Source: a virus. From it: a DNA stretch of 39,552 bases. The position numbers and the translations under genes were made by a program. Below, in pieces: positions 2,277 to 35,465 of the stretch (positions within the stretch are counted from its first letter, which is position 1; every line of letters begins with the position of its first letter). Below the pieces are notes generated by a model. The model made no database searches, was not told the origin of the DNA, and worked only from the letters and a program-made list of their open reading frames with translations. Location: the UHGV virus genome UHGV-0150234; one strand, 5' to 3'.

Positions 2277-3059
2277 CTATTTATTGGTGATTTCTGCTGG
2301 CTTTAGCTGCGCGGATAACTGCTCAAGTTTTTGAACTGCCAGTTCAAAATGCGCGGGCAACGCCTTTTCCAGATCAGAGTTAATATCGGTGATGGGCAAA
2401 TCACCACACGACATACTCCGCCTACCCCCACGAACAACATCACGCAACAACTCTCGTTCATACGTGCGCATGTTCCCCAATGCCGACTCAGCAGCCGTTA
2501 AAATCCGGCGCAGTTCTGCCGTAATTGCTGGTAAATCATCAACCGTTATGGGGTTCGGGGATGGATTACGACACGCCCGACGCAAAGCCAACCATACACC
2601 GCTAATCCAGGCATTTCGGTACTGAAAACTTTGTGCTATATCGTTGATCAGCCCTCGCAGATACTCTTTCTGCCTCCAGTTCAACGGCTCTGCTGCTCGC
2701 ATTGGCTCAGGTTCGACGTAAACGTACTCTCCATTCTTACGAATAGAGGGCAGGACCTCGTTCGTTACCCATTTACGAAACCGCCATGCAGTCGTGCCCT
2801 GTTTTACAGCGTCACGGCAGCGGAGGATCAGGGTGTATAGACCTGACTCTGAAATAATATTTAGCTTTTGCTCTCCGCCAGGGGTGTAACTTAAAGTTAC
2901 ACCCTTTTCATCCTCATCCAGAGACATTAGCGCCTTCCGGGAGTTAACGAGTCTTAAAGCATCACATACATCCTTAGCCACAAACCACGGCTCGCCGTTA
3001 ATCATCACTACACGAACCTGATGCTCTTCCTGAAAGGAAAAGACTGCTAACGCGCTCAT
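2277..3059 (-). CDS. Bro-N domain antirepressor-like protein, 260 aa
   Basis: N-terminal FSFQEEHQVRVV..GEPWFVAKDVCDALRL is a typical Bro-N/antirepressor signature. Last gene of a three-gene minus-strand operon. Confidence 0.75.
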   Translation of the reverse strand: MSALAVFSFQEEHQVRVVMINGEPWFVAKDVCDALRLVNSRKALMSLDEDEKGVTLSYTPGGEQKLNIISESGLYTLILRCRDAVKQGTTAWRFRKWVTNEVLPSIRKNGEYVYVEPEPMRAAEPLNWRQKEYLRGLINDIAQSFQYRNAWISGVWLALRRACRNPSPNPITVDDLPAITAELRRILTAAESALGNMRTYERELLRDVVRGGRRSMSCGDLPITDINSDLEKALPAHFELAVQKLEQLSAQLKPAEITNK

Positions 3060-3286
3060 TCAGCCTCCTTACCCAGCAATTGCGACGAGAGCGACGCGGA
3101 ATACCCCTGTGCTTCATGAGTTAACTCACACGCGATTTGAAGGAGCTTCCCGGCTTCTGATAGATAAATCGACGCCTCACAGCTGGATACTGTCCGATGG
3201 GCTGATGATACGAGCGCATAGACCTGAGCCAGACGTTCATCCAACGACTCCAGCAGGCCAACAGTGTTCATTTTTACCTGATTCAT
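3056..3286 (-). CDS. Hypothetical small protein, 76 aa (middle gene of antirepressor operon)
   Basis: ORF whose stop overlaps the start of the Bro-N gene and whose ATG overlaps the stop of the upstream small ORF (ATGA coupling). Confidence 0.5.
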   Translation of the reverse strand: MNQVKMNTVGLLESLDERLAQVYALVSSAHRTVSSCEASIYLSEAGKLLQIACELTHEAQGYSASLSSQLLGKEAE

Positions 3287-3447
3287 ACAGCCACCTCGCG
3301 CACCGGAATACGGGCAGACAATACCAGGACAAACCGGCTGGCGAACTGGCGACGAGCTTCCCGTTCAGATGACGCGATGGTGGAAAGATGATGGATGTGT
3401 GACTTTTTGTCTGTGCGAACGACTGCCGCAAATTTGAATTTGAACAT
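3283..3447 (-). CDS. Hypothetical small protein, 54 aa (first gene of antirepressor operon; not in the ORF track because it is under 60 aa)
   Basis: My own translation of the minus strand gives MFKFKFAAVVRTDKKSHIHHLSTIASSEREARRQFASRFVLVLSARIPVREVAV. ATG at 3447 is preceded by GGAG with 7-nt spacing; the stop overlaps the next gene's ATG. Confidence 0.4.
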   Translation of the reverse strand: MFKFKFAAVVRTDKKSHIHHLSTIASSEREARRQFASRFVLVLSARIPVREVAV

Positions 3448-3502
3448 GGTATGCACTCCGTTTAATTGGTCGTGCTACCACCAGAGTTCTCACGCTCTTG
3501 AA

Positions 3503-3584
3503 TGGTGGTAGCCCAAGCGGGGGTGAGAATACCGGCAAACGAAGAAACCGGCCTGACCGAAGTCAGCCCCGCCTGAGCCACCAT
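3503..3584 (-). ncRNA. Structured RNA candidate, copy 1 (about 82 nt; possibly C4/immI-type antisense RNA in the antirepressor operon leader)
   Basis: Minus-strand reading has a CUGAC-UUCG-GUCAG tetraloop hairpin, a GCGGGG/CCCCGC stem, and a 3' end GGGCUACCACCA. A paralogous copy at 3818-3898 shows compensatory changes. Confidence 0.45.
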
Positions 3585-3817
3585 AAATCGGATATGCGCA
3601 GGTATATACACACAAAAAAACACGCTGGCGCGTGTTGTGCGCTTCGTTTATCCGGGTTCTCACGCCCGGCTGCGGGATTTACCGCAGCGGAATAACTTTA
3701 CCGTCAAAACGACGCACACGTCAATAATTTGCAAAGACATTTTACCCTGTGACCAGTCACGGGGATAGGTGTTTTTATAGTTTGCTTAAACAAATGATTA
3801 GAAGATAAACGATATTG

Positions 3818-3898
3818 TGGTGGTAGCCCAGGCAGGGTTCTCAACACCGGCCCAAACGACACCGGCCAGCCTTTCGGCTGCCCCGCCTGAACTACCAT
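3818..3898 (-). ncRNA. Structured RNA candidate, copy 2 (paralogue of 3503-3584)
   Basis: Same conserved 5' (AUGGURGYUCAGGCGGGGC) and 3' (GGGCUACCACCA) ends as copy 1; the hairpin is CAGCC-GAAA-GGCUG (GNRA tetraloop), covarying with copy 1; internal loops differ. Confidence 0.45.
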
Positions 3899-4001
3899 TA
3901 GAATAATATACAACAAAACGTAGCATTTTTACTACATTAAAATATAAATATTGTTTACACTTTACTTTACTAATGGGGCGGCTCGGGCTATCCTGATTTT
4001 G

Positions 4002-4017
4002 CTGTATAAAAACACAG
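4002..4017. promoter_or_regulatory. LexA (SOS) box CTGTATAAAAACACAG
   Basis: Exact CTGT-N8-ACAG with AT-rich spacer, 62 bp upstream of the cma ATG and in the divergent region shared with the antirepressor operon. Confidence 0.6.
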
Positions 4018-4078
4018 TATTTATGCAGCGATTAAACCTGTATGTCTGTTATTTCATTAACTTATAAGGGTTTTTGAT

Positions 4079-4894
4079 ATGGATACTATCGTTGTGACAG
4101 CTCCATCACCATCAACTAACTTACCGAGTTATGGTAATGGCGCATTTTCTCTCTCAGCACCACACGTGCCTGGTTCTGGCCCCCTTTTAGTCCAGGTGGT
4201 TTACAGCTTTTTCCAGAGCCCAAACATGTGTATTCAGGCTCTAACTCAGCTTGAGGACTACATCAAAAAACACGGTGCCAGCGATCCCCTGACATTACAA
4301 ATTATGTCAACAAATATTGCCTACTTCTGTAACGCTGACAGAAACCTTATCCTTCACCGCGGAATAAGTGTTTATGACGCCTACCACTTAGCTAAACCTG
4401 CGCCAAATAAATATGACTATCGCTCAATGAATATGAAACAAATGAGCGGTAATGTCACAACACCAATTGTGGCGCTTGCACACTATTTATGGGGTAATGG
4501 TGCAGACCGAAGCGTTAATATCGCAAATATTGGTCTCAAAATTTCTCCGATGAAAATTAATCAGATAAGAGATATTGTAAAATCTGGTGTAGTAGGCACA
4601 TTCCCTATTTCTACAAAATTCACACACGCCACTGGCGATTATAATGTTATTACCGGCGCATATCTTGGTAATATCACGCTGAAAACAGAAGGTACTTTAA
4701 CTGTCTCCGCTAATGGCTCATGGACCTATAATGGCGTTGTTCGCTCGTATAACGACAAGTATGACTTCAATGCCAGCACTCATCGTGGCGTAATCGGAGA
4801 GTCTCTTACAAGGCTCGGGGCGATGTTCTCTGGTAAAGAGTATCAGATACTACTTCCTGGCGAAATTCACATTAAAGAAAGTGGCAAGCGATAA
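4079..4894 (+). CDS. cma: Colicin M (lipid II-degrading bacteriocin), 271 aa
   Basis: Full-length, near-identical to colicin M as recalled (same 271-aa length, ...VTAPSPSTNLPSYGNGAFSLSAPHVPG..., C-terminal ...GEIHIKESGKR). AT-rich relative to flanks. Confidence 0.92.
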   Translation: MDTIVVTAPSPSTNLPSYGNGAFSLSAPHVPGSGPLLVQVVYSFFQSPNMCIQALTQLEDYIKKHGASDPLTLQIMSTNIAYFCNADRNLILHRGISVYDAYHLAKPAPNKYDYRSMNMKQMSGNVTTPIVALAHYLWGNGADRSVNIANIGLKISPMKINQIRDIVKSGVVGTFPISTKFTHATGDYNVITGAYLGNITLKTEGTLTVSANGSWTYNGVVRSYNDKYDFNASTHRGVIGESLTRLGAMFSGKEYQILLPGEIHIKESGKR

Positions 4895-4895
4895 T

Positions 4896-4922
4896 AAAAA
4901 GGCCGGGATTCCGGCCTTTTTT
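4896..4922. terminator. Bidirectional intrinsic terminator between convergent cma and cmi
   Basis: AAAAA-GGCCGG-gatt-CCGGCC-TTTTTT: GC stem flanked by an A-run and a T-run. Confidence 0.7.
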
Positions 4923-4944
4923 ATGCAGTCTTTATACCGATGTA

Positions 4945-5301
4945 TCAATCATTTGCATATTCAACATAACCTTCCTTGCAATGGTACATTCCATAATACA
5001 TTCTCTTACCTTCCGGGCCTTCGGCTTTAAATGGGACGAGAAGCGTTTTTTCATCTTTAACATCTGTTAAGCTTCTTTCAATCTTTTCCCACGTAATTTT
5101 TGGGGCTTCTGTACCGAGAAGTTGTACATCGTTATTCCAACGCGTTATTTTTTTCAAAAAGTCATTTTTTACAAATTCTCTTGCCTGTTCATCACTAACC
5201 TTATAGCACTCTGGGCCTTTATTAGATTCAGGCCAGAAAAATACAATAGCAAGAGCAATAATTGATAAAATCAAAATGATTTTTATGCTAATTACTTTCA
5301 T
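4945..5301 (-). CDS. cmi: Colicin M immunity protein (membrane-anchored, periplasmic), 118 aa
   Basis: N-terminal hydrophobic anchor (ILILSIIALAIVFF) and strong resemblance to Cmi as recalled (…KITWEKIERSLTDV.DEKTLLVPFKAEGP.GKRMYYGMYHC.EGYVEYAND); convergent with cma. Confidence 0.88.
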   Translation of the reverse strand: MKVISIKIILILSIIALAIVFFWPESNKGPECYKVSDEQAREFVKNDFLKKITRWNNDVQLLGTEAPKITWEKIERSLTDVKDEKTLLVPFKAEGPEGKRMYYGMYHCKEGYVEYAND

Positions 5302-5428
5302 AAAATCTCCATCACCTTAAAAGCAAAACATACATATTTAGCCTTCATATTGTATGAGTATATCAATACAGTGTGTGCTTAATGTGAAGTAAAATTAACA
5401 ATATATAAACATTTAATATGCCGCGCAC

Positions 5429-6214: not shown

Positions 6215-9200
6215 TTACCCATAGAAAGCGCCCTGCTCTTCGTAGCTGCATGGGCTATTCCCGGTAATATATTCACGTAACCGCCGCAGTTCATTACTGG
6301 ACAAGTGATCCATGAACTCTGTTAGGTACAGAGATGCAAACGTCATAGCTATGCTGGCTGATGACCATGATGACATAGTGGCCAGCTCCTCACAGGAAAG
6401 CGCACTCATAGCCCAGGACTCAGGTACAGCCACCGGCAACACTGCCAAAGCCTCAGAAATTACTGAATGAGGGGCGTTTTGAACCTGCTCATTTGTGGAT
6501 CGCGTTTTATCATCCATATATATATTGAGATCCAAATCGCGATCCATTTCGATGGCGGTCTTCTCGGCTTTGCGCGTTTTCAGGGTTAGGCCATCTTTCT
6601 GACGCTGAGCAAGAATATCCAGCATAAATGCCGCTGATTCAGGCTCAACAAAACGCAAGGTTGGACGCTTATCGCCGTCTCTGCCACGACGTTTACCTGT
6701 TTTAAGGCCAAGAGAGTCGCAAATGTTTTTAAACAACGCTTCCGGCACTTTAGGCTTCCCTTTTGGCGTCATAAAACCACCAATGTGCAGAACGTTATTC
6801 AACAGGTCACGGCGTTCGGCTGTCATGAGGTTATCTCGAGCGAATTTGAGACGCTCCTGAGTCGCCTCGCCGGTCATAGTCTCAGGGTTGATACCGCAGT
6901 CGATAAAGTACTGCCGGAGAGTTGCTGATTTAAGCGCATAGAAACCGCGCGCCCCGACTTCAACAGTAGGAGTAGCTTTTACCTTGTAGTCGATTATTCC
7001 AGGGAATTTAGTTTTAAAGACATCATCAGCCTGCTCGCGAGTCATCGCGGTCACTACAAAATATTGCCACTGTCCCGCCTGACGGTATGCGTAGGTAAAA
7101 TTGATGGCTGCTTCTTCCCGGTCGTAACGACGAGCTGTTACCTCATCTAAAAGCATTGTTTCATAGCGGCGAACTTTGTCTCGAGCACCATCGAAATAGA
7201 ATTTCAGCGTGCCTTCTTCAACCGGTAGTTTCAGTTCGTTCTCAATATCCCAGCGGACAAGTTTTGCCTGTTCTTCAAGCGTCAGCGCGCGTTTTTTTAG
7301 CAGTTCTTCACGCTCTGATTCTTGTGGAGTTTCTGTATTGAGATGCAGATCCAGTGTCTGTTCCCACACAATATCCCGCGCTTCTTTACGCAGATCTTTA
7401 CCGATATCATTCGCAGCATAATCGGTGGCCAGCGGCGATACCTTATAACCGTCGCTGTGCATGATGCAGATCATGTTGCTGGCGTAGTCGTTACGCGCAG
7501 ACGCTTCAATTGCGGCTGCTTTAATTTTCATCCTGGTAAAGTCGGTATTGGCCACCCCCATTGATATACGGTCGCCATCGAAAACGACATCCGTCAGTTC
7601 ACCGTTCATGCCTGCGGTAGCAAGCAATGCCTGGGCGAATGCTCGTTCTATTTTTTGCGGGTCAGTTTCACGTTTTGCGCGAGCTTTATCAAAGCCGATA
7701 ATAAATTCTTTTGCTGTACGGTCGCGGCGTAGCATTTGCACTGCGTCGCTGGGTACAACTTCACCACAGAACATGCCGAAATGACGGTCAAAATGTTTTT
7801 GCTCAATCGACACGCCGGATGAAATAGACGGGCTATAAATCAGGCCGTCGTATTTTTTGACCATCTTTTTCGGTTGATTGGTAAATGCTTCAACTTCTGG
7901 CTCTGGTTTGTTTTTCTGGTTTACACACAGAAATTTCTTACCAGGAAAATGCATTCTCAGGGTGGCGGTCACATCTTCTGCAAAGGTGGAGCTGTCGGTG
8001 GCCAACATAATTTTTTCGCCATCCGATACAGCTTTCACCACCTCGGTCATAATGCGATCTTTTTCTGTATAAAAAACCCGGATTGGCTCACCTGTTTCGC
8101 GGTTGCGAACATCAACAGGTAATTCAATTACGTGGATCTGCAGCCATGCGGGTAAACCGAGTTCTTCGCGGCGTTTCATAGCCAGTTCAGCCAGGTCAAC
8201 CAGCAGATCGTTCGCATCAGCATCCACCATGATTGGGTGTTGTTCCGTTCTGGCCAGCGCATCAATTAGCGTATTGAATACAGCCACCGGGTTTTCCATA
8301 GCCCGACCGGAAAGAACGGCACGTAGCCCTTGTGTTGCCTCGTCAAAGCCAAAATAGTCGTGCTGGCGCATCAACGGTTGCCAGCAGTTTTTAACAATCG
8401 AGTTTATGCAGATGGTCAGTTTACTGGCGTATGGGGCCATTTCCTGATAGCCAGGGTCCTGATAGTGCAGGATATCGGCTTTTACACCTTTTCCTTCAGT
8501 CATCATTTCCCACAGACCACCAATAAGGGAAACACGGTGAGCTACAGAGATACCACGTTCTGAGCTATGCATTAACGGTCGTAACAATCCAGTAGATTTG
8601 CCGGAACCCATACCAGCACGGACGATGACTATCCCCTGTAGTGATTGCACGTACTTCAGGACGTCATCGGTCATTACCGAAGTATCAAAACGCTTATAGG
8701 TGATATGTTGAGGGCGTTTATTGGGATCAGTTATGCGTTCGCTGAAAGAGCGCGGAGCCTGGGCAATACGGCACTTTTTATTCAGGCGACGGGCAATATG
8801 GTCTTTTACCGTAGCGCGATAGATATTTTCCAGCCCCATTTCACGCAGAACGATACAGAACATGTTAAATAAATCTGACGGGCTGTTAGGAACCGGACAG
8901 GTCAGCATGCCAATATCTACCGCTCTCAGCAGCTCTTTGGCAAAAGTACGGCGGTTATCCCGCTTAATTGTCTTCAGGCGGTTGAGTGTCAGAGATAGCA
9001 AATCAGTACCGGTTTTCAGGCGGTTTGCTGTTGCGAATAGTTGACGTGCTGTTTCACGAAGTCCACGTAGTTTGTGCAGGTCGTTGAAGTCACTGCACTC
9101 CATTTGCGGATCGTCTTCAAAAGTTGGGTAGACGCAGCGGACATCGTTGAATTTAGATAAGATTTCATAGCCAGTCCGCAGGCCGGTATTCCCTTTTCCT

Positions 9201-10210
9201 TCTGTGGCAGATTTCCGGTCATTATCCAGTGCGCAGGTGATTTTTGCCGCCGGGTACATGTTTACCAGTTGTTCCACAACATGAACCATGTTGTTAGCGG
9301 ATACAGCGACAACCACAGCGTCAAAGCGTTTATCTTTTTTCGTGGCAAGCCAGATGGATGCACCAGTAGCAAAACCTTCTGTAACAGCGATGTTTTGCGC
9401 CCCTTTCAGCTCACCGATAACAAAGCAGGCACCGACGAAATCGCCGCTGGTTACTGCGCTGGTCTGGTATTTCCCACCTTGTTTGTCGATTCGCTGCCAA
9501 CCCACAATACGACCATCATAACGACCGTCCAGGTGAGCCAGAGGGATAGCCATATATGTGGTTGGCCCCCGGCTCCATTTCGCACTGTCGTGACTGGTCA
9601 CGCGACGCACATCACATGAACTAAAAACGTCACGAATACCTTTTTTAATCGCATATGGCCATGAGCCGTCTTCAGCCTGAGCATGTTCCCACGCGCTGTG
9701 GAATGCCAGCCATCCCAGCAAACGTTCATGGTCCATTTGGTTGTTTTTCAGGTCATTAATTCGTTTTTGTTCTTCACGGCGACGACGTGCTTCGGCCTGA
9801 CGTTCTATTCTTTCCCGTTCTTCTTCCGGTTGTGCGACCACGGTCGCATTATTCCGTTGTTGCTCACGGCGATATTCAGAAAACAGGAAGGAGAAACCGC
9901 TCCATGAGCCAGCATCGCTGCCTTTATGGACGAAGTTAATGAACGGGTAATCAATCCCTTTGCTGTGTTCCAGCCTGGAGTAAATTTCTACGCGTCCTTT
10001 CAGGCTCTTTTCGAGAGCTTCTGGAGATGTTTTATTGTATGAAGAGTAACGCTCAACCCCCCCGCGAGGGTTGAGTTGGATGTTGTCGGAACAGGCAGGC
10101 CAGTTGATACCAGCCATCTGTGCCAGCTCGGTTAGTTCATCCCGTGCTGCTTCAATTAGCGAGAACGGATCGCTGCCAAAGCGATCCGCATAGAAATCGT
10201 TTAATGTCAT
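6215..10210 (-). CDS. repA: Multifunctional replication protein RepA (primase-helicase), 1331 aa
   Basis: Size and position match N15 RepA (about 1324 aa from memory). Walker A motif GMGSGKST is present. Downstream of cB on the same strand. The N15 origin is reported to lie inside the 3' part of repA (recalled, not located here). Confidence 0.9.
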   Translation of the reverse strand: MTLNDFYADRFGSDPFSLIEAARDELTELAQMAGINWPACSDNIQLNPRGGVERYSSYNKTSPEALEKSLKGRVEIYSRLEHSKGIDYPFINFVHKGSDAGSWSGFSFLFSEYRREQQRNNATVVAQPEEERERIERQAEARRRREEQKRINDLKNNQMDHERLLGWLAFHSAWEHAQAEDGSWPYAIKKGIRDVFSSCDVRRVTSHDSAKWSRGPTTYMAIPLAHLDGRYDGRIVGWQRIDKQGGKYQTSAVTSGDFVGACFVIGELKGAQNIAVTEGFATGASIWLATKKDKRFDAVVVAVSANNMVHVVEQLVNMYPAAKITCALDNDRKSATEGKGNTGLRTGYEILSKFNDVRCVYPTFEDDPQMECSDFNDLHKLRGLRETARQLFATANRLKTGTDLLSLTLNRLKTIKRDNRRTFAKELLRAVDIGMLTCPVPNSPSDLFNMFCIVLREMGLENIYRATVKDHIARRLNKKCRIAQAPRSFSERITDPNKRPQHITYKRFDTSVMTDDVLKYVQSLQGIVIVRAGMGSGKSTGLLRPLMHSSERGISVAHRVSLIGGLWEMMTEGKGVKADILHYQDPGYQEMAPYASKLTICINSIVKNCWQPLMRQHDYFGFDEATQGLRAVLSGRAMENPVAVFNTLIDALARTEQHPIMVDADANDLLVDLAELAMKRREELGLPAWLQIHVIELPVDVRNRETGEPIRVFYTEKDRIMTEVVKAVSDGEKIMLATDSSTFAEDVTATLRMHFPGKKFLCVNQKNKPEPEVEAFTNQPKKMVKKYDGLIYSPSISSGVSIEQKHFDRHFGMFCGEVVPSDAVQMLRRDRTAKEFIIGFDKARAKRETDPQKIERAFAQALLATAGMNGELTDVVFDGDRISMGVANTDFTRMKIKAAAIEASARNDYASNMICIMHSDGYKVSPLATDYAANDIGKDLRKEARDIVWEQTLDLHLNTETPQESEREELLKKRALTLEEQAKLVRWDIENELKLPVEEGTLKFYFDGARDKVRRYETMLLDEVTARRYDREEAAINFTYAYRQAGQWQYFVVTAMTREQADDVFKTKFPGIIDYKVKATPTVEVGARGFYALKSATLRQYFIDCGINPETMTGEATQERLKFARDNLMTAERRDLLNNVLHIGGFMTPKGKPKVPEALFKNICDSLGLKTGKRRGRDGDKRPTLRFVEPESAAFMLDILAQRQKDGLTLKTRKAEKTAIEMDRDLDLNIYMDDKTRSTNEQVQNAPHSVISEALAVLPVAVPESWAMSALSCEELATMSSWSSASIAMTFASLYLTEFMDHLSSNELRRLREYITGNSPCSYEEQGAFYG

Positions 10211-32911: not shown

Positions 32912-35465
32912 ACCGGTAGGCGATCTGGTCGTTGATTTGAGTCTGGATGCGGCCAGATTTGACGAGCAGATGGCCAGAGTCAGGCGTCATTTTTCCGGTA
33001 CGGAAAGTGATGCGAAAAAAACAGCGGCAGTCGTTGAACAGTCGCTGAGCCGACAGGCGCTGGCTGCACAGAAAGCGGGGATTTCCGTCGGGCAGTATAA
33101 AGCCGCCATGCGTATGCTGCCTGCACAGTTCACCGACGTGGCCACGCAGCTTGCAGGCGGGCAAAGTCCGTGGCTGATCCTGCTGCAACAGGGTGGTCAG
33201 GTTAAGGACTCCTTCGGCGGGATGATCCCCATGTTCAGGGGGCTTGCCGGTGCGATCACCCTGCCGATGGTGGGGGCCACCTCGCTGGCGGTGGCGACCG
33301 GTGCGCTGGCGTATGCCTGGTATCAGGGCAACTCAACCCTGTCCGATTTCAACAAAACGCTGGTCCTTTCCGGCAATCAGGCGGGACTGACGGCAGATCG
33401 CATGCTGGTCCTGTCCAGAGCCGGGCAGGCGGCAGGGCTGACGTTTAACCAGACCAGCGAGTCACTCAGCGCACTGGTTAAGGCGGGGGTAAGCGGTGAG
33501 GCTCAGATTGCGTCCATCAGCCAGAGTGTGGCGCGTTTCTCCTCTGCATCCGGCGTGGAGGTGGACAAGGTCGCTGAAGCCTTCGGGAAGCTGACCACAG
33601 ACCCGACGTCGGGGCTGACGGCGATGGCACGCCAGTTCCATAACGTGACGGCGGAGCAGATTGCGTATGTTGCTCAGTTGCAGCGTTCCGGCGATGAAGC
33701 CGGGGCATTGCAGGCGGCGAACGAGGCCGCAACGAAAGGGTTTGATGACCAGACCCGCCGCCTGAAAGAGAACATGGGCACGCTGGAGACCTGGGCAGAC
33801 AGGACAGCACGGGCATTCAAATCCATGTGGGATGCGGTGCTGGATATTGGTCGTCCTGATACCGCTCAGGAGATGCTGATTAAGGCAGAGGCTGCGTTTA
33901 AGAAAGCAGACGACATCTGGAATCTGCGCAAGGATGATTATTTTGTTAACGATGAAGCGCGGGCGCGTTACTGGGATGATCGTGAAAAGGCCCGTCTTGC
34001 GCTTGAAGCCGCCCGAAAGAAGGCTGAGCAGCAGAGTCAACAGGACAAAAATGCGCAGCAGCAGAGCGATACCGAAGCGTCACGGCTGAAATATACCGAA
34101 GAGGCGCAGAAGGCTTACGAACGCCTGCAAACGCCGCTGGAGAAATATACCGCCCGTCAGGAAGAACTGAATAAGGCACTGAAAGACGGGAAAATCCTGC
34201 AGGCAGATTACAACACGCTGATGGCGGCAGCGAAAAAGGATTATGAAGCTACGCTGAAAAAGCCGAAGCAGTCCGGCGTGAAGGTGTCTGCGGGCGATCG
34301 TCAGGAAGACAGTGCTCATGCTGCCCTGCTGACGCTTCAGGCAGAACTCCGGACGCTGGAGAAGCATGCCGGAGCGAATGAGAAAATCAGCCAGCAGCGC
34401 CGGGATTTGTGGAAGGCGGAGAATCAGTTCGCGGTACTGGAGGAGGCGGCGCAACGTCGCCAGCTGTCTGCACAGGAGAAATCCCTGCTGGCGCATAAAG
34501 ACGAGACGCTGGAGTACAAGCGCCAGCTGGCTGCACTTGGCGATAAGGTCACGTATCAGGAGCACCTGAATGCGCTGGCGCAGCAGGCGGATAAATTCGC
34601 ACAGCAGCAACGGGCAAAACGGGCCGCCATTGATGCGAAAAGCCGGGGGCTGACTGACCGGCAGGCAGCGCGGGAAGCCACGGAACAGCGTCTGAAGGAA
34701 CAGTATGGCGATAATCCGCTGGCGCTGAATAACGTCATGTCAGAGCAGAAAAAGACCTGGGCGGCTGAAGACCAGCTTCGCGGGAGCTGGATGGCAGGCC
34801 TGAAGTCCGGCTGGAGTGAGTGGGAAGAGAGCGCCACGGACAGTATGTCGCAGGTTAAAAGTGCTGCCACGCAGACCTTTGATGGTATTGCACAGAATAT
34901 GGCGGCGATGCTGACCGGCAGTGAACAGAACTGGCGCAGCTTCACCCGTTCCGTGCTGTCCATGATGACAGAAATTCTGCTTAAGCAGGCAATGGTGGGG
35001 ATTGTCGGGAGTATCGGCAGCGCCATTGGCGGTGCTGCCAGTGGTGGAGCATCAGCGTCAGGTGGTACAGCCATTCAGGCCGCTGCGGCGAAATTCCATT
35101 TTGCGACCGGGGGATTTACGGGAACCGGCGGCAAATATGAGCCAGCGGGGATTGTTCACCGTGGTGAGTTTGTCTTCACGAAGGAGGCAACCAGCCGGAT
35201 TGGCGTGGGGAATCTCTACCGGCTGATGCGCGGCTATGCCACCGGCGGTTATGTCGGTACACCGGGCAGCATGGCAGACAGCCGGTCGCAGGCGTCCGGG
35301 ACGTTTGAGCAGAATAACCATGTGGTGATTAACAACGACGGCACGAACGGTCAGATAGGGCCACAGGCACTGAAGGCTGTTTATGACGTAGCCCGTAAGG
35401 CGGCAATGGATGTTGTGACCGGGCAGATGCGCGATGGTGGTCTGTTCTCCGGAGGTGGACGATGA
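32904..35465 (+). CDS. H: Tail tape measure protein H, 853 aa
   Basis: Lambda gpH-like, same length. Confidence 0.95.
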   Translation: MAEPVGDLVVDLSLDAARFDEQMARVRRHFSGTESDAKKTAAVVEQSLSRQALAAQKAGISVGQYKAAMRMLPAQFTDVATQLAGGQSPWLILLQQGGQVKDSFGGMIPMFRGLAGAITLPMVGATSLAVATGALAYAWYQGNSTLSDFNKTLVLSGNQAGLTADRMLVLSRAGQAAGLTFNQTSESLSALVKAGVSGEAQIASISQSVARFSSASGVEVDKVAEAFGKLTTDPTSGLTAMARQFHNVTAEQIAYVAQLQRSGDEAGALQAANEAATKGFDDQTRRLKENMGTLETWADRTARAFKSMWDAVLDIGRPDTAQEMLIKAEAAFKKADDIWNLRKDDYFVNDEARARYWDDREKARLALEAARKKAEQQSQQDKNAQQQSDTEASRLKYTEEAQKAYERLQTPLEKYTARQEELNKALKDGKILQADYNTLMAAAKKDYEATLKKPKQSGVKVSAGDRQEDSAHAALLTLQAELRTLEKHAGANEKISQQRRDLWKAENQFAVLEEAAQRRQLSAQEKSLLAHKDETLEYKRQLAALGDKVTYQEHLNALAQQADKFAQQQRAKRAAIDAKSRGLTDRQAAREATEQRLKEQYGDNPLALNNVMSEQKKTWAAEDQLRGSWMAGLKSGWSEWEESATDSMSQVKSAATQTFDGIAQNMAAMLTGSEQNWRSFTRSVLSMMTEILLKQAMVGIVGSIGSAIGGAASGGASASGGTAIQAAAAKFHFATGGFTGTGGKYEPAGIVHRGEFVFTKEATSRIGVGNLYRLMRGYATGGYVGTPGSMADSRSQASGTFEQNNHVVINNDGTNGQIGPQALKAVYDVARKAAMDVVTGQMRDGGLFSGGGR

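What the first reader, a model, noticed from the sequence alone, without database searches (positions are those of the whole stretch)
3474..3898. Two paralogous structured-RNA candidates in the leader of the antirepressor operon (C4/immI-type antisense RNA?)
Two elements of about 82 nt (3503-3584 and 3818-3898) share conserved ends but differ internally. Read on the minus strand, each has a 5-bp hairpin closed by a canonical tetraloop (UUCG in copy 1, GAAA in copy 2) with compensatory stem changes (CUGAC/GUCAG versus CAGCC/GGCUG), and both end in ...GGGCUACCACCA, a tRNA-like 3' end. In copy 1 this 3' end can alternatively pair with a downstream 10-nt complement (hairpin 3474-3512) just before the ribosome-binding site of the first operon gene. 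Conserved ends with divergent loops and a cis target next to the first gene resemble antisense control of an icd/ant-type operon as in P1/P7 immI; I recall an analogous small RNA being described for N15 but cannot verify it.
Basis: partly seen in the sequence, partly recalled or inferred. Interest (0 to 1): 0.7.

Follow-up and report, generated by a model that had tools for sequence, protein, structure and literature searches.

The report
Two C4 antisense RNA genes, N15-type
Both elements are genes for the well-known C4/CA antisense RNA that keeps a phage antirepressor operon silent; the one next to the operon is the ordinary resident copy, while the upstream one carries the target-recognition loops of a different immunity type and has no target in this genome, so it is either a spare weapon against rival phage-plasmids or a recombination leftover.

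Summary
Rfam places both elements in the C4 antisense RNA family (82.2 and 69.2 bits against a cut-off of 45). It also finds an isrK/seqA-type leader with a terminator between them. The window is an N15-type linear phage-plasmid.

Copy 1 (3588-3501, minus strand) is the orthologue of N15 cA. Its junction (a') and hairpin-2 loop (b') are complementary to a1/b1 in the leader and to a2/b2 in front of icd, as in P1 immI. These sites co-vary in 17 of 17 distinct relatives. That part is already known biology.

Copy 2 (3902-3816) lies upstream of promoter Pa, beside a colicin M cargo module. It folds perfectly, but its a'/b' are those of another immunity type (YDC107_1, pPEC1013-3). It has no target in the window and no promoter better than chance. 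Intact extra copies recur only in a small Enterobacter-associated group, and one relative holds a decayed copy.

I favour a trans-acting cross-immunity RNA (about 0.45) over a recombination relic (about 0.4). Interest is modest.

The parts
3816..3902 (-). C4-family RNA gene, copy 2 (orphan, heterotypic). The predicted mature RNA is about 3896-3819 (GGU...CCACC). Hairpin 1 is 3880-3867 with a GAAA loop. The hairpin-2 loop b' is 3861-3851 (UGUCGUUUGGG). The junction a' is 3845-3838 (GUUGAGAA).
   Evidence: Rfam C4 69.2 bits and own model 100.2 bits. Fold -49.4 kcal/mol, z -6.2. Its a'/b' are identical to YDC107_1 and pPEC1013-3. No a+b target exists in the window.
3745..3764 (.). Near-perfect 20-bp palindrome, CCCCGTGACTGGTCACAGGG, about 20 bp upstream of the Pa -35 element. 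It is operator-like and lies between copy 2 and Pa.
   Evidence: The core GTGAC[T/G]GGTCAC sits at the same place in all N15-like loci listed, except L035. Its role was not tested.
3695..3724 (-). Predicted sigma-70 promoter Pa: TTGACG, 18-nt spacer, TAAAGT.
   Evidence: It is the only promoter-like site on this strand in 3300-4200. It is conserved in the relatives. The leader model starts 7 nt after the -10 element.
3615..3688 (-). Leader RNA of the isrK / P4 seqA / c4-a1b1 type. Hairpin 1 is 3688-3669. Hairpin 2 is 3668-3652 and displays a1 (GUGAGAA, 3663-3657). b1 is AAACGAAG (3649-3642).
   Evidence: Rfam isrK 64.1 bits against 50. Rfam c4-a1b1 42.5 bits, E 3e-9, below its 46.7 cut-off. 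a1 and b1 are complementary to a' and b' of copy 1.
3614..3636 (-). Intrinsic terminator Ta: AACACGCGCCAGCGUGUU followed by a U run.
   Evidence: Terminator scan. The homologous N15 site is annotated 'putative rho-indep. transcription terminator'.
3501..3588 (-). C4/CA antisense RNA gene, copy 1 (resident, cognate). The predicted mature RNA is about 3582-3504. The b' core is CUUCGUUU (3544-3537). a' is AUUCUCAC (3530-3523). The 3' strand plus tail is ...GCUACCACCA (3512-3503).
   Evidence: Rfam C4 82.2 bits. It is orthologous to the N15 cA region. Fold z -7.0. The summed duplex energy with its own four boxes is -40.3 kcal/mol, against -20 to -23 with foreign boxes.
3483..3498 (-). Mini-hairpin AGAG/CUCU that displays target box a2 (GUGAGAA, 3493-3487).
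   Evidence: The a':a2 Watson-Crick run is at least 7 nt in 17 of 17 cognate pairs. In pairs of different type the mean is 3.5 and the maximum 6. None of 5000 permutations reaches the observed total.
3472..3483 (-). Conserved element UGGUGGUAGC(AC). It is complementary to the 3' strand of C4 copy 1 (3512-3503). It can pair instead with UGCAUACCAUG (3455-3445) at the icd start codon.
   Evidence: It lies at the same offset in 18 of 21 diverse loci. RNAalifold shows covariation, for example one pair with CG in 11 and UA in 10 sequences. P1 has GGGUAGCAGG at the same place. The alternative pairing with the start region appears in the 151-nt fold, but only one pair shows compensatory change.
3456..3464 (-). 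Target box b2, UAAACGGAG, which overlaps the icd Shine-Dalgarno sequence GGAG (3459-3456).
   Evidence: 9-bp complementarity to b', including one G-U pair. Its position matches the annotated P1 b2 site.
3283..3447 (-). icd-like gene (54 aa), the first gene of the anti-immunity operon.
   Evidence: NCBIfam phage_ICD_like, 67 bits against 25.
2277..3286 (-). Two downstream operon genes. The first is a 76-aa homologue of N15 gp31 (3286-3056). The second is a 260-aa Bro-N antirepressor-type protein (3059-2277).
   Evidence: Pfam Bro-N 9.8e-22. PHROGs 'anti-repressor' families match both proteins. The gene order matches N15 genes 32-31-30 next to the protelomerase gene.

Best explanation
The region is the anti-immunity (immA) control module of an N15-type linear phage-plasmid. 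It is built like P1 immI.

**The resident circuit.** Promoter Pa makes a leader RNA that carries boxes a1 and b1 and mostly ends at terminator Ta. Read-through transcripts contain copy 1, the resident C4/CA RNA. Like other C4 RNAs, copy 1 has a tRNA-like acceptor stem, a GGU 5' start and an ACCACCA 3' end. These features mark it as something RNase P would cut out of the transcript as a roughly 79-nt RNA.

The free RNA uses two exposed segments. These are the 8-nt junction a' (AUUCUCAC) and the hairpin-2 loop b' (CUUCGUUU).
- They pair with a1/b1 in nascent leaders. This favours stopping at or before Ta.
- They pair with a2/b2 downstream, where b2 covers the icd Shine-Dalgarno sequence. This blocks translation of icd and, through coupling, of the antirepressor genes.

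**Copy 2.** It is a second, structurally intact C4 gene parked upstream of Pa, at the edge of the variable cargo slot next to colicin M. Its a'/b' belong to another immunity type, and its only predicted targets lie in other phage-plasmids such as YDC107_1 and pPEC1013-3. My preferred reading (about 0.45) is that it is transcribed at some level and silences the antirepressor operon of incoming phages of that type. That would protect the resident prophage from induction.

**What is shown and what is inferred.**
- Shown here: family membership, structure, complementarity and its covariation, and the orphan status of copy 2.
- Inferred: transcription, processing, termination, and any trans action of copy 2.
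For: - **Family hits.** Rfam matches C4 twice and isrK once, and c4-a1b1 at E 3e-9.
- **Synteny and annotation.** The layout matches N15, including its annotated cA gene and terminator. The operon genes are icd and Bro-N antirepressor types.
- **P1 layout.** The P1 record annotates a1, b1, c4, a2, b2 and icd in the same order. Its a' is the junction and its b' is the hairpin-2 loop.
- **Structure.** Covariation supports the three-helix fold.
- **Targets.** Cognate a'/a1, b'/b1, a'/a2 and b'/b2 pairing holds in 17 of 17 distinct types, and 0 of 5000 permutations match it. The only a+b sites for copy 1 in 39.5 kb are the leader and the icd site.
- **Duplex energies.** Copy 1 against its own boxes sums to -40.3 kcal/mol. 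Copy 2 against the window's boxes sums to -20.0, and against Y-type boxes to -47.
- **State of copy 2.** It differs from pPEC1013-3 at 5 stem positions, all of which preserve pairing, and at none of the inner 46 nt.
- **Recurrence.** Heterotypic extra copies sit at the same spot in L015 and L017.
- **Literature.** RNase P processing at GGW and the roles of a' and b' are summarised in PMC5320573. The homology between the IsrK/C4 pair and the P4, P1 and N15 systems is stated in PMC3632133 and PMC4825925.
Against: - **No transcription data.** I found no promoter upstream of copy 2 better than chance. 80% of shuffles of that AT-rich stretch score as well.
- **A unique arrangement.** The window's layout occurs in none of the collections searched.
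- **Close relatives lack it.** Relatives 97-98% identical across immA have a single copy.
- **Decay is possible.** L027 holds a decayed extra copy at the same position, scoring 16.8 bits. Such copies are therefore not always maintained.
- **N15 mechanism.** The primary N15 paper was not available. The termination step rests on secondary sources and on analogy with P4.
Confidence: 0.7

Rival explanations
1. Copy 2 is a silent recombination relic. On this reading, exchange between two heteroimmune N15-type phages, or the insertion of the colicin M module, left a foreign C4 gene at the edge of the cargo slot. It is not expressed and does nothing.
For: - There is no promoter better than chance.
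- It sits exactly where homology to the closest relatives breaks, at about 3803.
- Its flanks match nothing in any collection.
- A decayed copy lies at the same position in L027.
- It lacks its own a1b1 leader and terminator.
Against: - All 27 pairs of the fold are intact.
- All five differences from the nearest cognate copy preserve pairing, and none falls in the a'/b' core.
- L015 and L017 carry two leaderless extra copies 11 nt apart. Both are above the Rfam threshold, and the array is shared by phages of different resident types. Single crossovers do not easily explain that.
Confidence: 0.4
2. Copy 2 is a redundant or reinforcing repressor of the window's own icd-ant operon.
For: Its b' loop has partial complementarity to the window's boxes. 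The run against b1 is 7 nt and against b2 is 8 nt, counting G-U pairs.
Against: - Its a' matches the window's a1 and a2 over only 3 nt.
- The summed duplex energy is -20 kcal/mol, against -40 for copy 1.
- In P1 and P7, a few differences in a' are enough for heteroimmunity (PMC5320573, citing Citron and Schuster 1990).
Confidence: 0.05
3. The elements are parts of small protein-coding genes, as public records annotate them ('ash family protein', 'cA secondary immunity repressor', gp32).
For: Annotated CDSs overlap the homologous DNA in N15, YDC107_1 and RefSeq plasmids.
Against: - Substitutions follow base-pairing, with 19 of 27 pairs showing compensatory change.
- Both copies give strong covariance-model hits.
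- The title of the 1999 N15 paper itself attributes control to a small processed RNA (cited in PMC4488713).
Confidence: 0.02

Closest known systems
N15 immA anti-immunity system: CA RNA with icd, antA and antB (Ravin, Svarchevsky and Deho 1999)
   Same: The replicon type and gene order are the same: repA side, then Pa, leader, terminator, C4, icd, a 76-aa gene, a Bro-N gene, then the protelomerase gene. DNA identity over 3787-3302 is 80.7%. N15 also has one C4 hit and one isrK hit.
   Different: N15 has a single C4 gene. The window's resident copy has different a' and b' boxes (AUUCUCAC and CUUCGUUU, against GUUGAGAA and CUUCUUGU in N15). It is therefore predicted to be heteroimmune with N15 at immA. 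The window also has a second copy and a colicin M module upstream.
P1/P7 immI: c4, icd and ant with targets a1, b1, a2 and b2
   Same: The layout and logic are the same. a' is the junction and b' the hairpin-2 loop. a1/b1 lie upstream and a2/b2 downstream, with b2 over the icd ribosome-binding site. A complement to the C4 3' strand lies between a2 and b2. The RNA has a GGW 5' start.
   Different: The phage family is different and there is little primary sequence identity. P1's promoters are controlled by the C1 operator Oc4, whereas here a different palindrome precedes Pa. P1 has one c4 gene.
P4 immunity: CI RNA with seqA and seqC
   Same: The C4/CI RNA is homologous, with blastn identity of 77% to the P4 cI region. 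The isrK-like leader corresponds to seqA. Target sites lie both upstream and downstream of the RNA gene (PMC4825925, PMC3632133).
   Different: P4 uses the RNA for its primary immunity, controlling replication genes. It does not control an icd-antirepressor operon.
Gifsy-1 isrK, STnc1160, orf45 and anrP locus of Salmonella
   Same: The leader matches the isrK family above its threshold. An approximately 80-nt RNA is processed from read-through transcripts, and an antirepressor gene lies downstream. Alternative mRNA structures gate translation (PMC4825925).
   Different: In Gifsy-1 the short leader RNA was shown to activate translation in trans. That was not tested here. orf45 overlaps the C4-like RNA there, whereas here icd is a separate gene downstream.
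Multi-copy C4-like small RNAs of Acinetobacter baumannii (PMC5320573)
   Same: One genome holds several C4-fold RNAs that differ in a'. Those authors also suggested defence against incoming phages.
   Different: Those copies are chromosomal and scattered, with unknown targets. Here the extra copy sits beside a working immA module, and its loops match a known, co-circulating immunity type exactly.

Membership tests
C4 antisense RNA (Rfam RF01695) | Covariance-model score at or above the curated gathering score of 45 bits | tested here: met
   Copy 1 scores 82.2 bits and copy 2 scores 69.2 bits, both full length over model positions 1-87.
C4 antisense RNA (Rfam RF01695) | A long outer stem enclosing two hairpins, supported by covariation | tested here: met
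   98.2% of cells are paired and 19 of 27 pairs change on both sides. None of 500 shuffles reaches this. Each copy folds alone into this structure.
C4 antisense RNA (Rfam RF01695) | Exposed a' and b' segments complementary to a2/b2 in front of an icd/ant operon in the same element | tested here: met
   This row is for copy 1. a' pairs with a2 over 7 nt and b' with b2 over 9 nt, and b2 covers the Shine-Dalgarno sequence. These are the only such sites in the window.
C4 antisense RNA (Rfam RF01695) | The same feature, tested for copy 2 | tested here: not met
   The window has no a+b target site for copy 2. Its a' matches the window's a1 and a2 over only 3 nt. By sequence and fold it is a family member, but it is an orphan in this genome.
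C4 antisense RNA (Rfam RF01695) | Processing by RNase P into a stable RNA of about 77 nt | not testable with these tools
   Both copies have the sequence hallmarks: a GGU start and an ACCACCA 3' end. The requirement itself comes from PMC5320573 and PMC2190699.
isrK / P4 seqA-type leader (Rfam RF01394) | Covariance-model score of at least 50 bits, with two 5' hairpins and an intrinsic terminator | tested here: met
   64.1 bits over 3688-3615. The terminator is also found by the pattern scan.
c4-a1b1 (Rfam RF03163) | Covariance-model score of at least 46.7 bits | tested here: not met
   42.5 bits with E 3e-9 over 3701-3649. The relatives L009 and L017 pass, at 52-54 bits. The functional criterion, complementarity to a' and b', is met.
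N15 immA anti-immunity module | Pa, leader, terminator, cA, icd and two ant genes, lying between repA and the protelomerase gene of a linear phage-plasmid | tested here: met
N15 immA anti-immunity module | CA RNA causes premature termination of Pa transcripts | not testable with these tools
   The primary paper is not held. This is inferred from b1 lying directly 5' of Ta and from the P4 analogy (PMC4825925).

The most novel reading that the evidence does not exclude
Orphan, heterotypic C4 genes parked at the left edge of immA are cargo for competition between phage-plasmids. This covers one copy here and a tandem pair in an Enterobacter-associated lineage. Each would silence the antirepressor operon of rival phage-plasmids of another immunity type. 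A resident prophage would thereby collect RNA 'immunities' in the same slot where it carries a bacteriocin.
Probability: 0.4. Interest if true: 0.6.

Novelty: new member of a known kind. Interest (0 to 1): 0.35.

Why it matters
The main result is a clean annotation. Two RNA genes and their four target boxes can be placed to the nucleotide, in a region that public records still annotate as small proteins.

The survey also shows that N15-type phage-plasmids have diversified into many immA specificities. They mix at least five a' types with at least six b' types, and three sites co-evolve in each. This gives a simple sequence-based way to predict which of these elements are mutually immune at the antirepressor level.

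If the orphan copy is active, it would be a natural case of a prophage broadening its immunity by acquiring a rival's antisense RNA.

Tried and rejected
- **A second C4 in YDC107_1.** The second 'place' at 33173-33255 looked like an extra copy. It is the mirror image of immA in a palindromic assembly that also holds two protelomerase genes.
- **Searches for the window's own arrangement.** An exact-junction scan of IMG/VR found nothing. A gapped pattern (a C4 3' end followed by the immA block) returned only the contigs of L015, L017 and L027, plus two stretches without any C4. megablast and blastn of the copy-2 flanks found nothing in plasmids, phages or E. coli genomes.
- **A promoter for copy 2.** The consensus scans found none on that strand. 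A rough position-weight scan gave TATATT ending at 3905 as the best candidate, but 80% of shuffles of the region score as well.
- **A target for copy 2 in the window.** Only isolated 7-8-mers turned up, at about the number expected by chance.
- **A hairpin hiding the icd start codon.** It is predicted, but only one pair shows compensatory change. I keep it as a hypothesis only.
- **Hairpin 1 as a specificity loop.** I rejected this. Its tetraloops vary without any matching change in the targets.
- **Literature.** The 1999 N15 paper and PMC1951935 are not held.

Full report
**What is there.** A gathering-threshold Rfam scan of the whole window returns three hits, all on the minus strand in this region.
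- C4 antisense RNA (RF01695) at 3588-3501, 82.2 bits.
- C4 antisense RNA at 3902-3816, 69.2 bits.
- isrK (RF01394) at 3688-3615, 64.1 bits. This hit lies between the two C4 hits and ends in an intrinsic terminator.

Each C4 copy folds alone into the family structure, with z-scores of -7.0 and -6.2. No other C4-like element exists in the 39.5 kb, even with the search filters off.

**Where the window comes from.** It is an N15-type linear phage-plasmid. The genes present are:
- a protelomerase at 215-2104;
- a 1331-aa ORF at 6215-10210, in the position of the replication gene repA (not scanned against any family here);
- an Icd-like gene at 3447-3283;
- a 76-aa homologue of N15 gp31;
- a 260-aa Bro-N antirepressor-type protein.

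N15 matches 3787-3302 at 80.7% identity. Its records annotate 'cA, secondary immunity repressor' and a rho-independent terminator at the homologous positions. From gene order, and from memory of the N15 literature, the 76-aa gene should be antA and the Bro-N gene antB. I could not check this naming.

**How copy 1 works (shown by sequence, mechanism inferred).** The P1 record annotates a1, b1, c4, a2, b2 and icd in that order. In P1, a' is the junction between hairpin 2 and the 3' strand, and b' is the hairpin-2 loop. The window has the same layout.
- Pa has its -35 element at 3724-3719 and its -10 element at 3700-3695.
- The leader holds a1 (GUGAGAA, 3663-3657) in a hairpin loop and b1 (AAACGAAG, 3649-3642) directly before terminator Ta (3636-3614).
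- Copy 1 carries b' (CUUCGUUU, 3544-3537) and a' (AUUCUCAC, 3530-3523).
- a2 (3493-3487) sits in a small AGAG/CUCU hairpin.
- b2 (UAAACGGAG, 3464-3456) overlaps the icd Shine-Dalgarno sequence.

A relaxed Rfam scan also matches the leader to 'c4-a1b1, targets of C4 antisense RNA' at 42.5 bits. That is just under the 46.7 cut-off, with E 3e-9.

**Support from relatives.** I fetched about 120 loci around relatives of the Bro-N protein and built a covariance model from four C4 sequences. The model found 66 matches.
- The C4 fold has strong covariation. 98.2% of cells are paired, 19 of 27 pairs change on both sides, and 0 of 500 shuffles reach this.
- The boxes co-vary with their targets. In 17 distinct N15-type loci, each phage's a' matches its own a1 and a2 over at least 7 nt. 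Foreign types average 3.5-3.9 nt.
- Each b' matches its own b1 and b2. None of 5000 permutations of partners reaches the observed total.
- At least five a' types and six b' types occur in mixed combinations.

The only sites in the window that carry both an a box and a b box for copy 1 are the leader and the icd site. Published work says C4 RNAs are cut from longer transcripts by RNase P at a GGW motif. It also says a' sets specificity and b' occludes the ribosome-binding site (PMC5320573, PMC2190699). The IsrK/seqA plus C4/CI pair is shared by P4, P1, P7 and N15 (PMC3632133, PMC4825925). All of this is already-known biology.

**Copy 2.** It lies upstream of Pa and of a conserved palindrome (3764-3745), so it is not part of the Pa leader. 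Three points describe it.
- Its a' (GUUGAGAA) and b' loop (UGUCGUUUGGG) are identical to those of the single, cognate C4 of YDC107_1 and of E. coli plasmid pPEC1013-3. The leaders and icd sites of those elements carry the matching boxes.
- Predicted duplex energies summed over the four boxes are -47 kcal/mol against those elements. They are only -20 against the window's own boxes, where copy 1 reaches -40.3.
- No a+b target for copy 2 exists in the window.

Copy 2 is therefore a structurally intact, heterotypic orphan.

**Context of copy 2.** Immediately upstream is a divergent colicin M gene (4079-4894, Pfam E 8e-145) with a YebF-like gene that is probably its immunity gene (4945-5301). This module is 86.5% identical to pColBM-type plasmids over 4045-5318.

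The closest immA relatives are 97-98% identical. They have one C4 each, and their homology to the window stops at about 3803, just beside copy 2. The flanks of copy 2 match nothing in any collection I could search.

**Is copy 2 functional?**
- For:
  - All pairs of the fold are intact.
  - Its five differences from pPEC1013-3 all lie in the outer stem and all preserve pairing. The inner 46 nt are identical.
  - Extra copies recur at exactly this position, abutting the left edge of the conserved immA block. L015 and L017 hold two leaderless copies 11 nt apart, both above the Rfam threshold. Both are heterotypic to the resident copy, and the two phages have different resident types. One Enterobacter plasmid has the same array.
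- Against:
  - I found no promoter better than chance.
  - The arrangement is unique to this window.
  - L027 holds a decayed copy at the same spot, scoring 16.8 bits.

I put trans-acting cross-immunity at about 0.45, a silent relic at about 0.4, and other readings at the remainder.

**The 10-nt complement.** UGGUGGUAGC (3483-3474) lies between a2 and b2 and pairs with the 3' strand of copy 1.
- It occupies the same offset in 18 of 21 diverse loci, including phages of Arsenophonus, Symbiopectobacterium and a Cardiobacteriaceae genome.
- P1 has GGGUAGCAGG at the same place, opposite CCUGCCACC.
- RNAalifold finds covariation. One pair is CG in 11 sequences and UA in 10.
- In a fold of the whole 151-nt stretch, the element pairs instead with UGCAUACCAUG at the icd start codon. 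Covariation for that alternative is weak.

It may be a switch linking C4 folding to icd translation. This recalls the inactive and active mRNA structures described for the Gifsy-1 isrK locus (PMC4825925). That idea is inference only.

**Verdict.** Copy 1 and the leader are an ordinary member of a known system. The orphan heterotypic copy is a modestly interesting, untested lead.

Noticed in passing
window 4000-5318: A colicin M gene (4079-4894, plus strand) and a YebF-like, probable Cmi immunity gene (4945-5301, minus strand) sit in the variable slot between the replication genes and immA. They are 86.5% identical to pColBM-type plasmids over 4045-5318. A LexA-box-like palindrome, TGCTGTATAAAAACACAGTA (4000-4019), lies upstream of cma and outside that homology. 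This is an E. coli-type counterpart of the Klebsiella 'telocin' cargo described in PMC12042878.
   Followed up: partly
window 3745-3764: A near-perfect 20-bp palindrome, CCCCGTGACTGGTCACAGGG, lies about 20 bp upstream of the Pa -35 element. Its core is conserved in almost all N15-type loci. It is operator-like, and its binding protein is unknown.
   Followed up: no
L001 1717-2007; L002 413-715; L130 3220-3342; L131 3233-3355: Public records annotate protein-coding genes over the C4 RNA gene. The names used are gp32, 'cA secondary immunity repressor' and 'ash family protein'. The PHROG families that hit Icd are also named 'transcriptional repressor'. These are probably legacy misannotations.
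   Followed up: partly
L015 3152-3239 and L017 3155-3242, against position 4002 of most N15-type loci: The hairpin-2 loop of extra copy x1 (UUUGUGCGUUCA) is complementary over 9 nt to AUGAACGCAC. That sequence is the start codon and first codons of the Bro-N antirepressor gene in most N15-type phages, though not in this window. It may be a second kind of target for orphan C4 RNAs.
   Followed up: partly
L015 2598-3050: The sequence TTGTCAATTTACAAGTCTTCAT occurs twice. The second copy is followed by a strong intrinsic terminator that ends 6 nt before the tandem C4 array. It may be a small toxin or small-RNA cassette. Rfam has no hit there.
   Followed up: no
L123 10419-10515 (same contig as L027): A decayed extra C4 copy, scoring 16.8 bits with several broken pairs, lies at the same position as the window's copy 2. 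Its loops resemble the x1 type.
   Followed up: yes
L122 and L003 (CP025712.1); L004/L005; L030/L031: Several records and IMG/VR contigs of linear phage-plasmids contain mirror-image duplications around the telomere, for example two protelomerase genes and two immA copies. These are probably artefacts of assembling across the hairpin ends. They can be mistaken for extra gene copies.
   Followed up: partly
L093 3595-3682: In a contig labelled Limoniibacter endophyticus, the immA module is truncated. The Pa promoter and leader are missing, and the C4 sequence runs directly from its junction into the b2/icd start. This looks like a deletion derivative.
   Followed up: no
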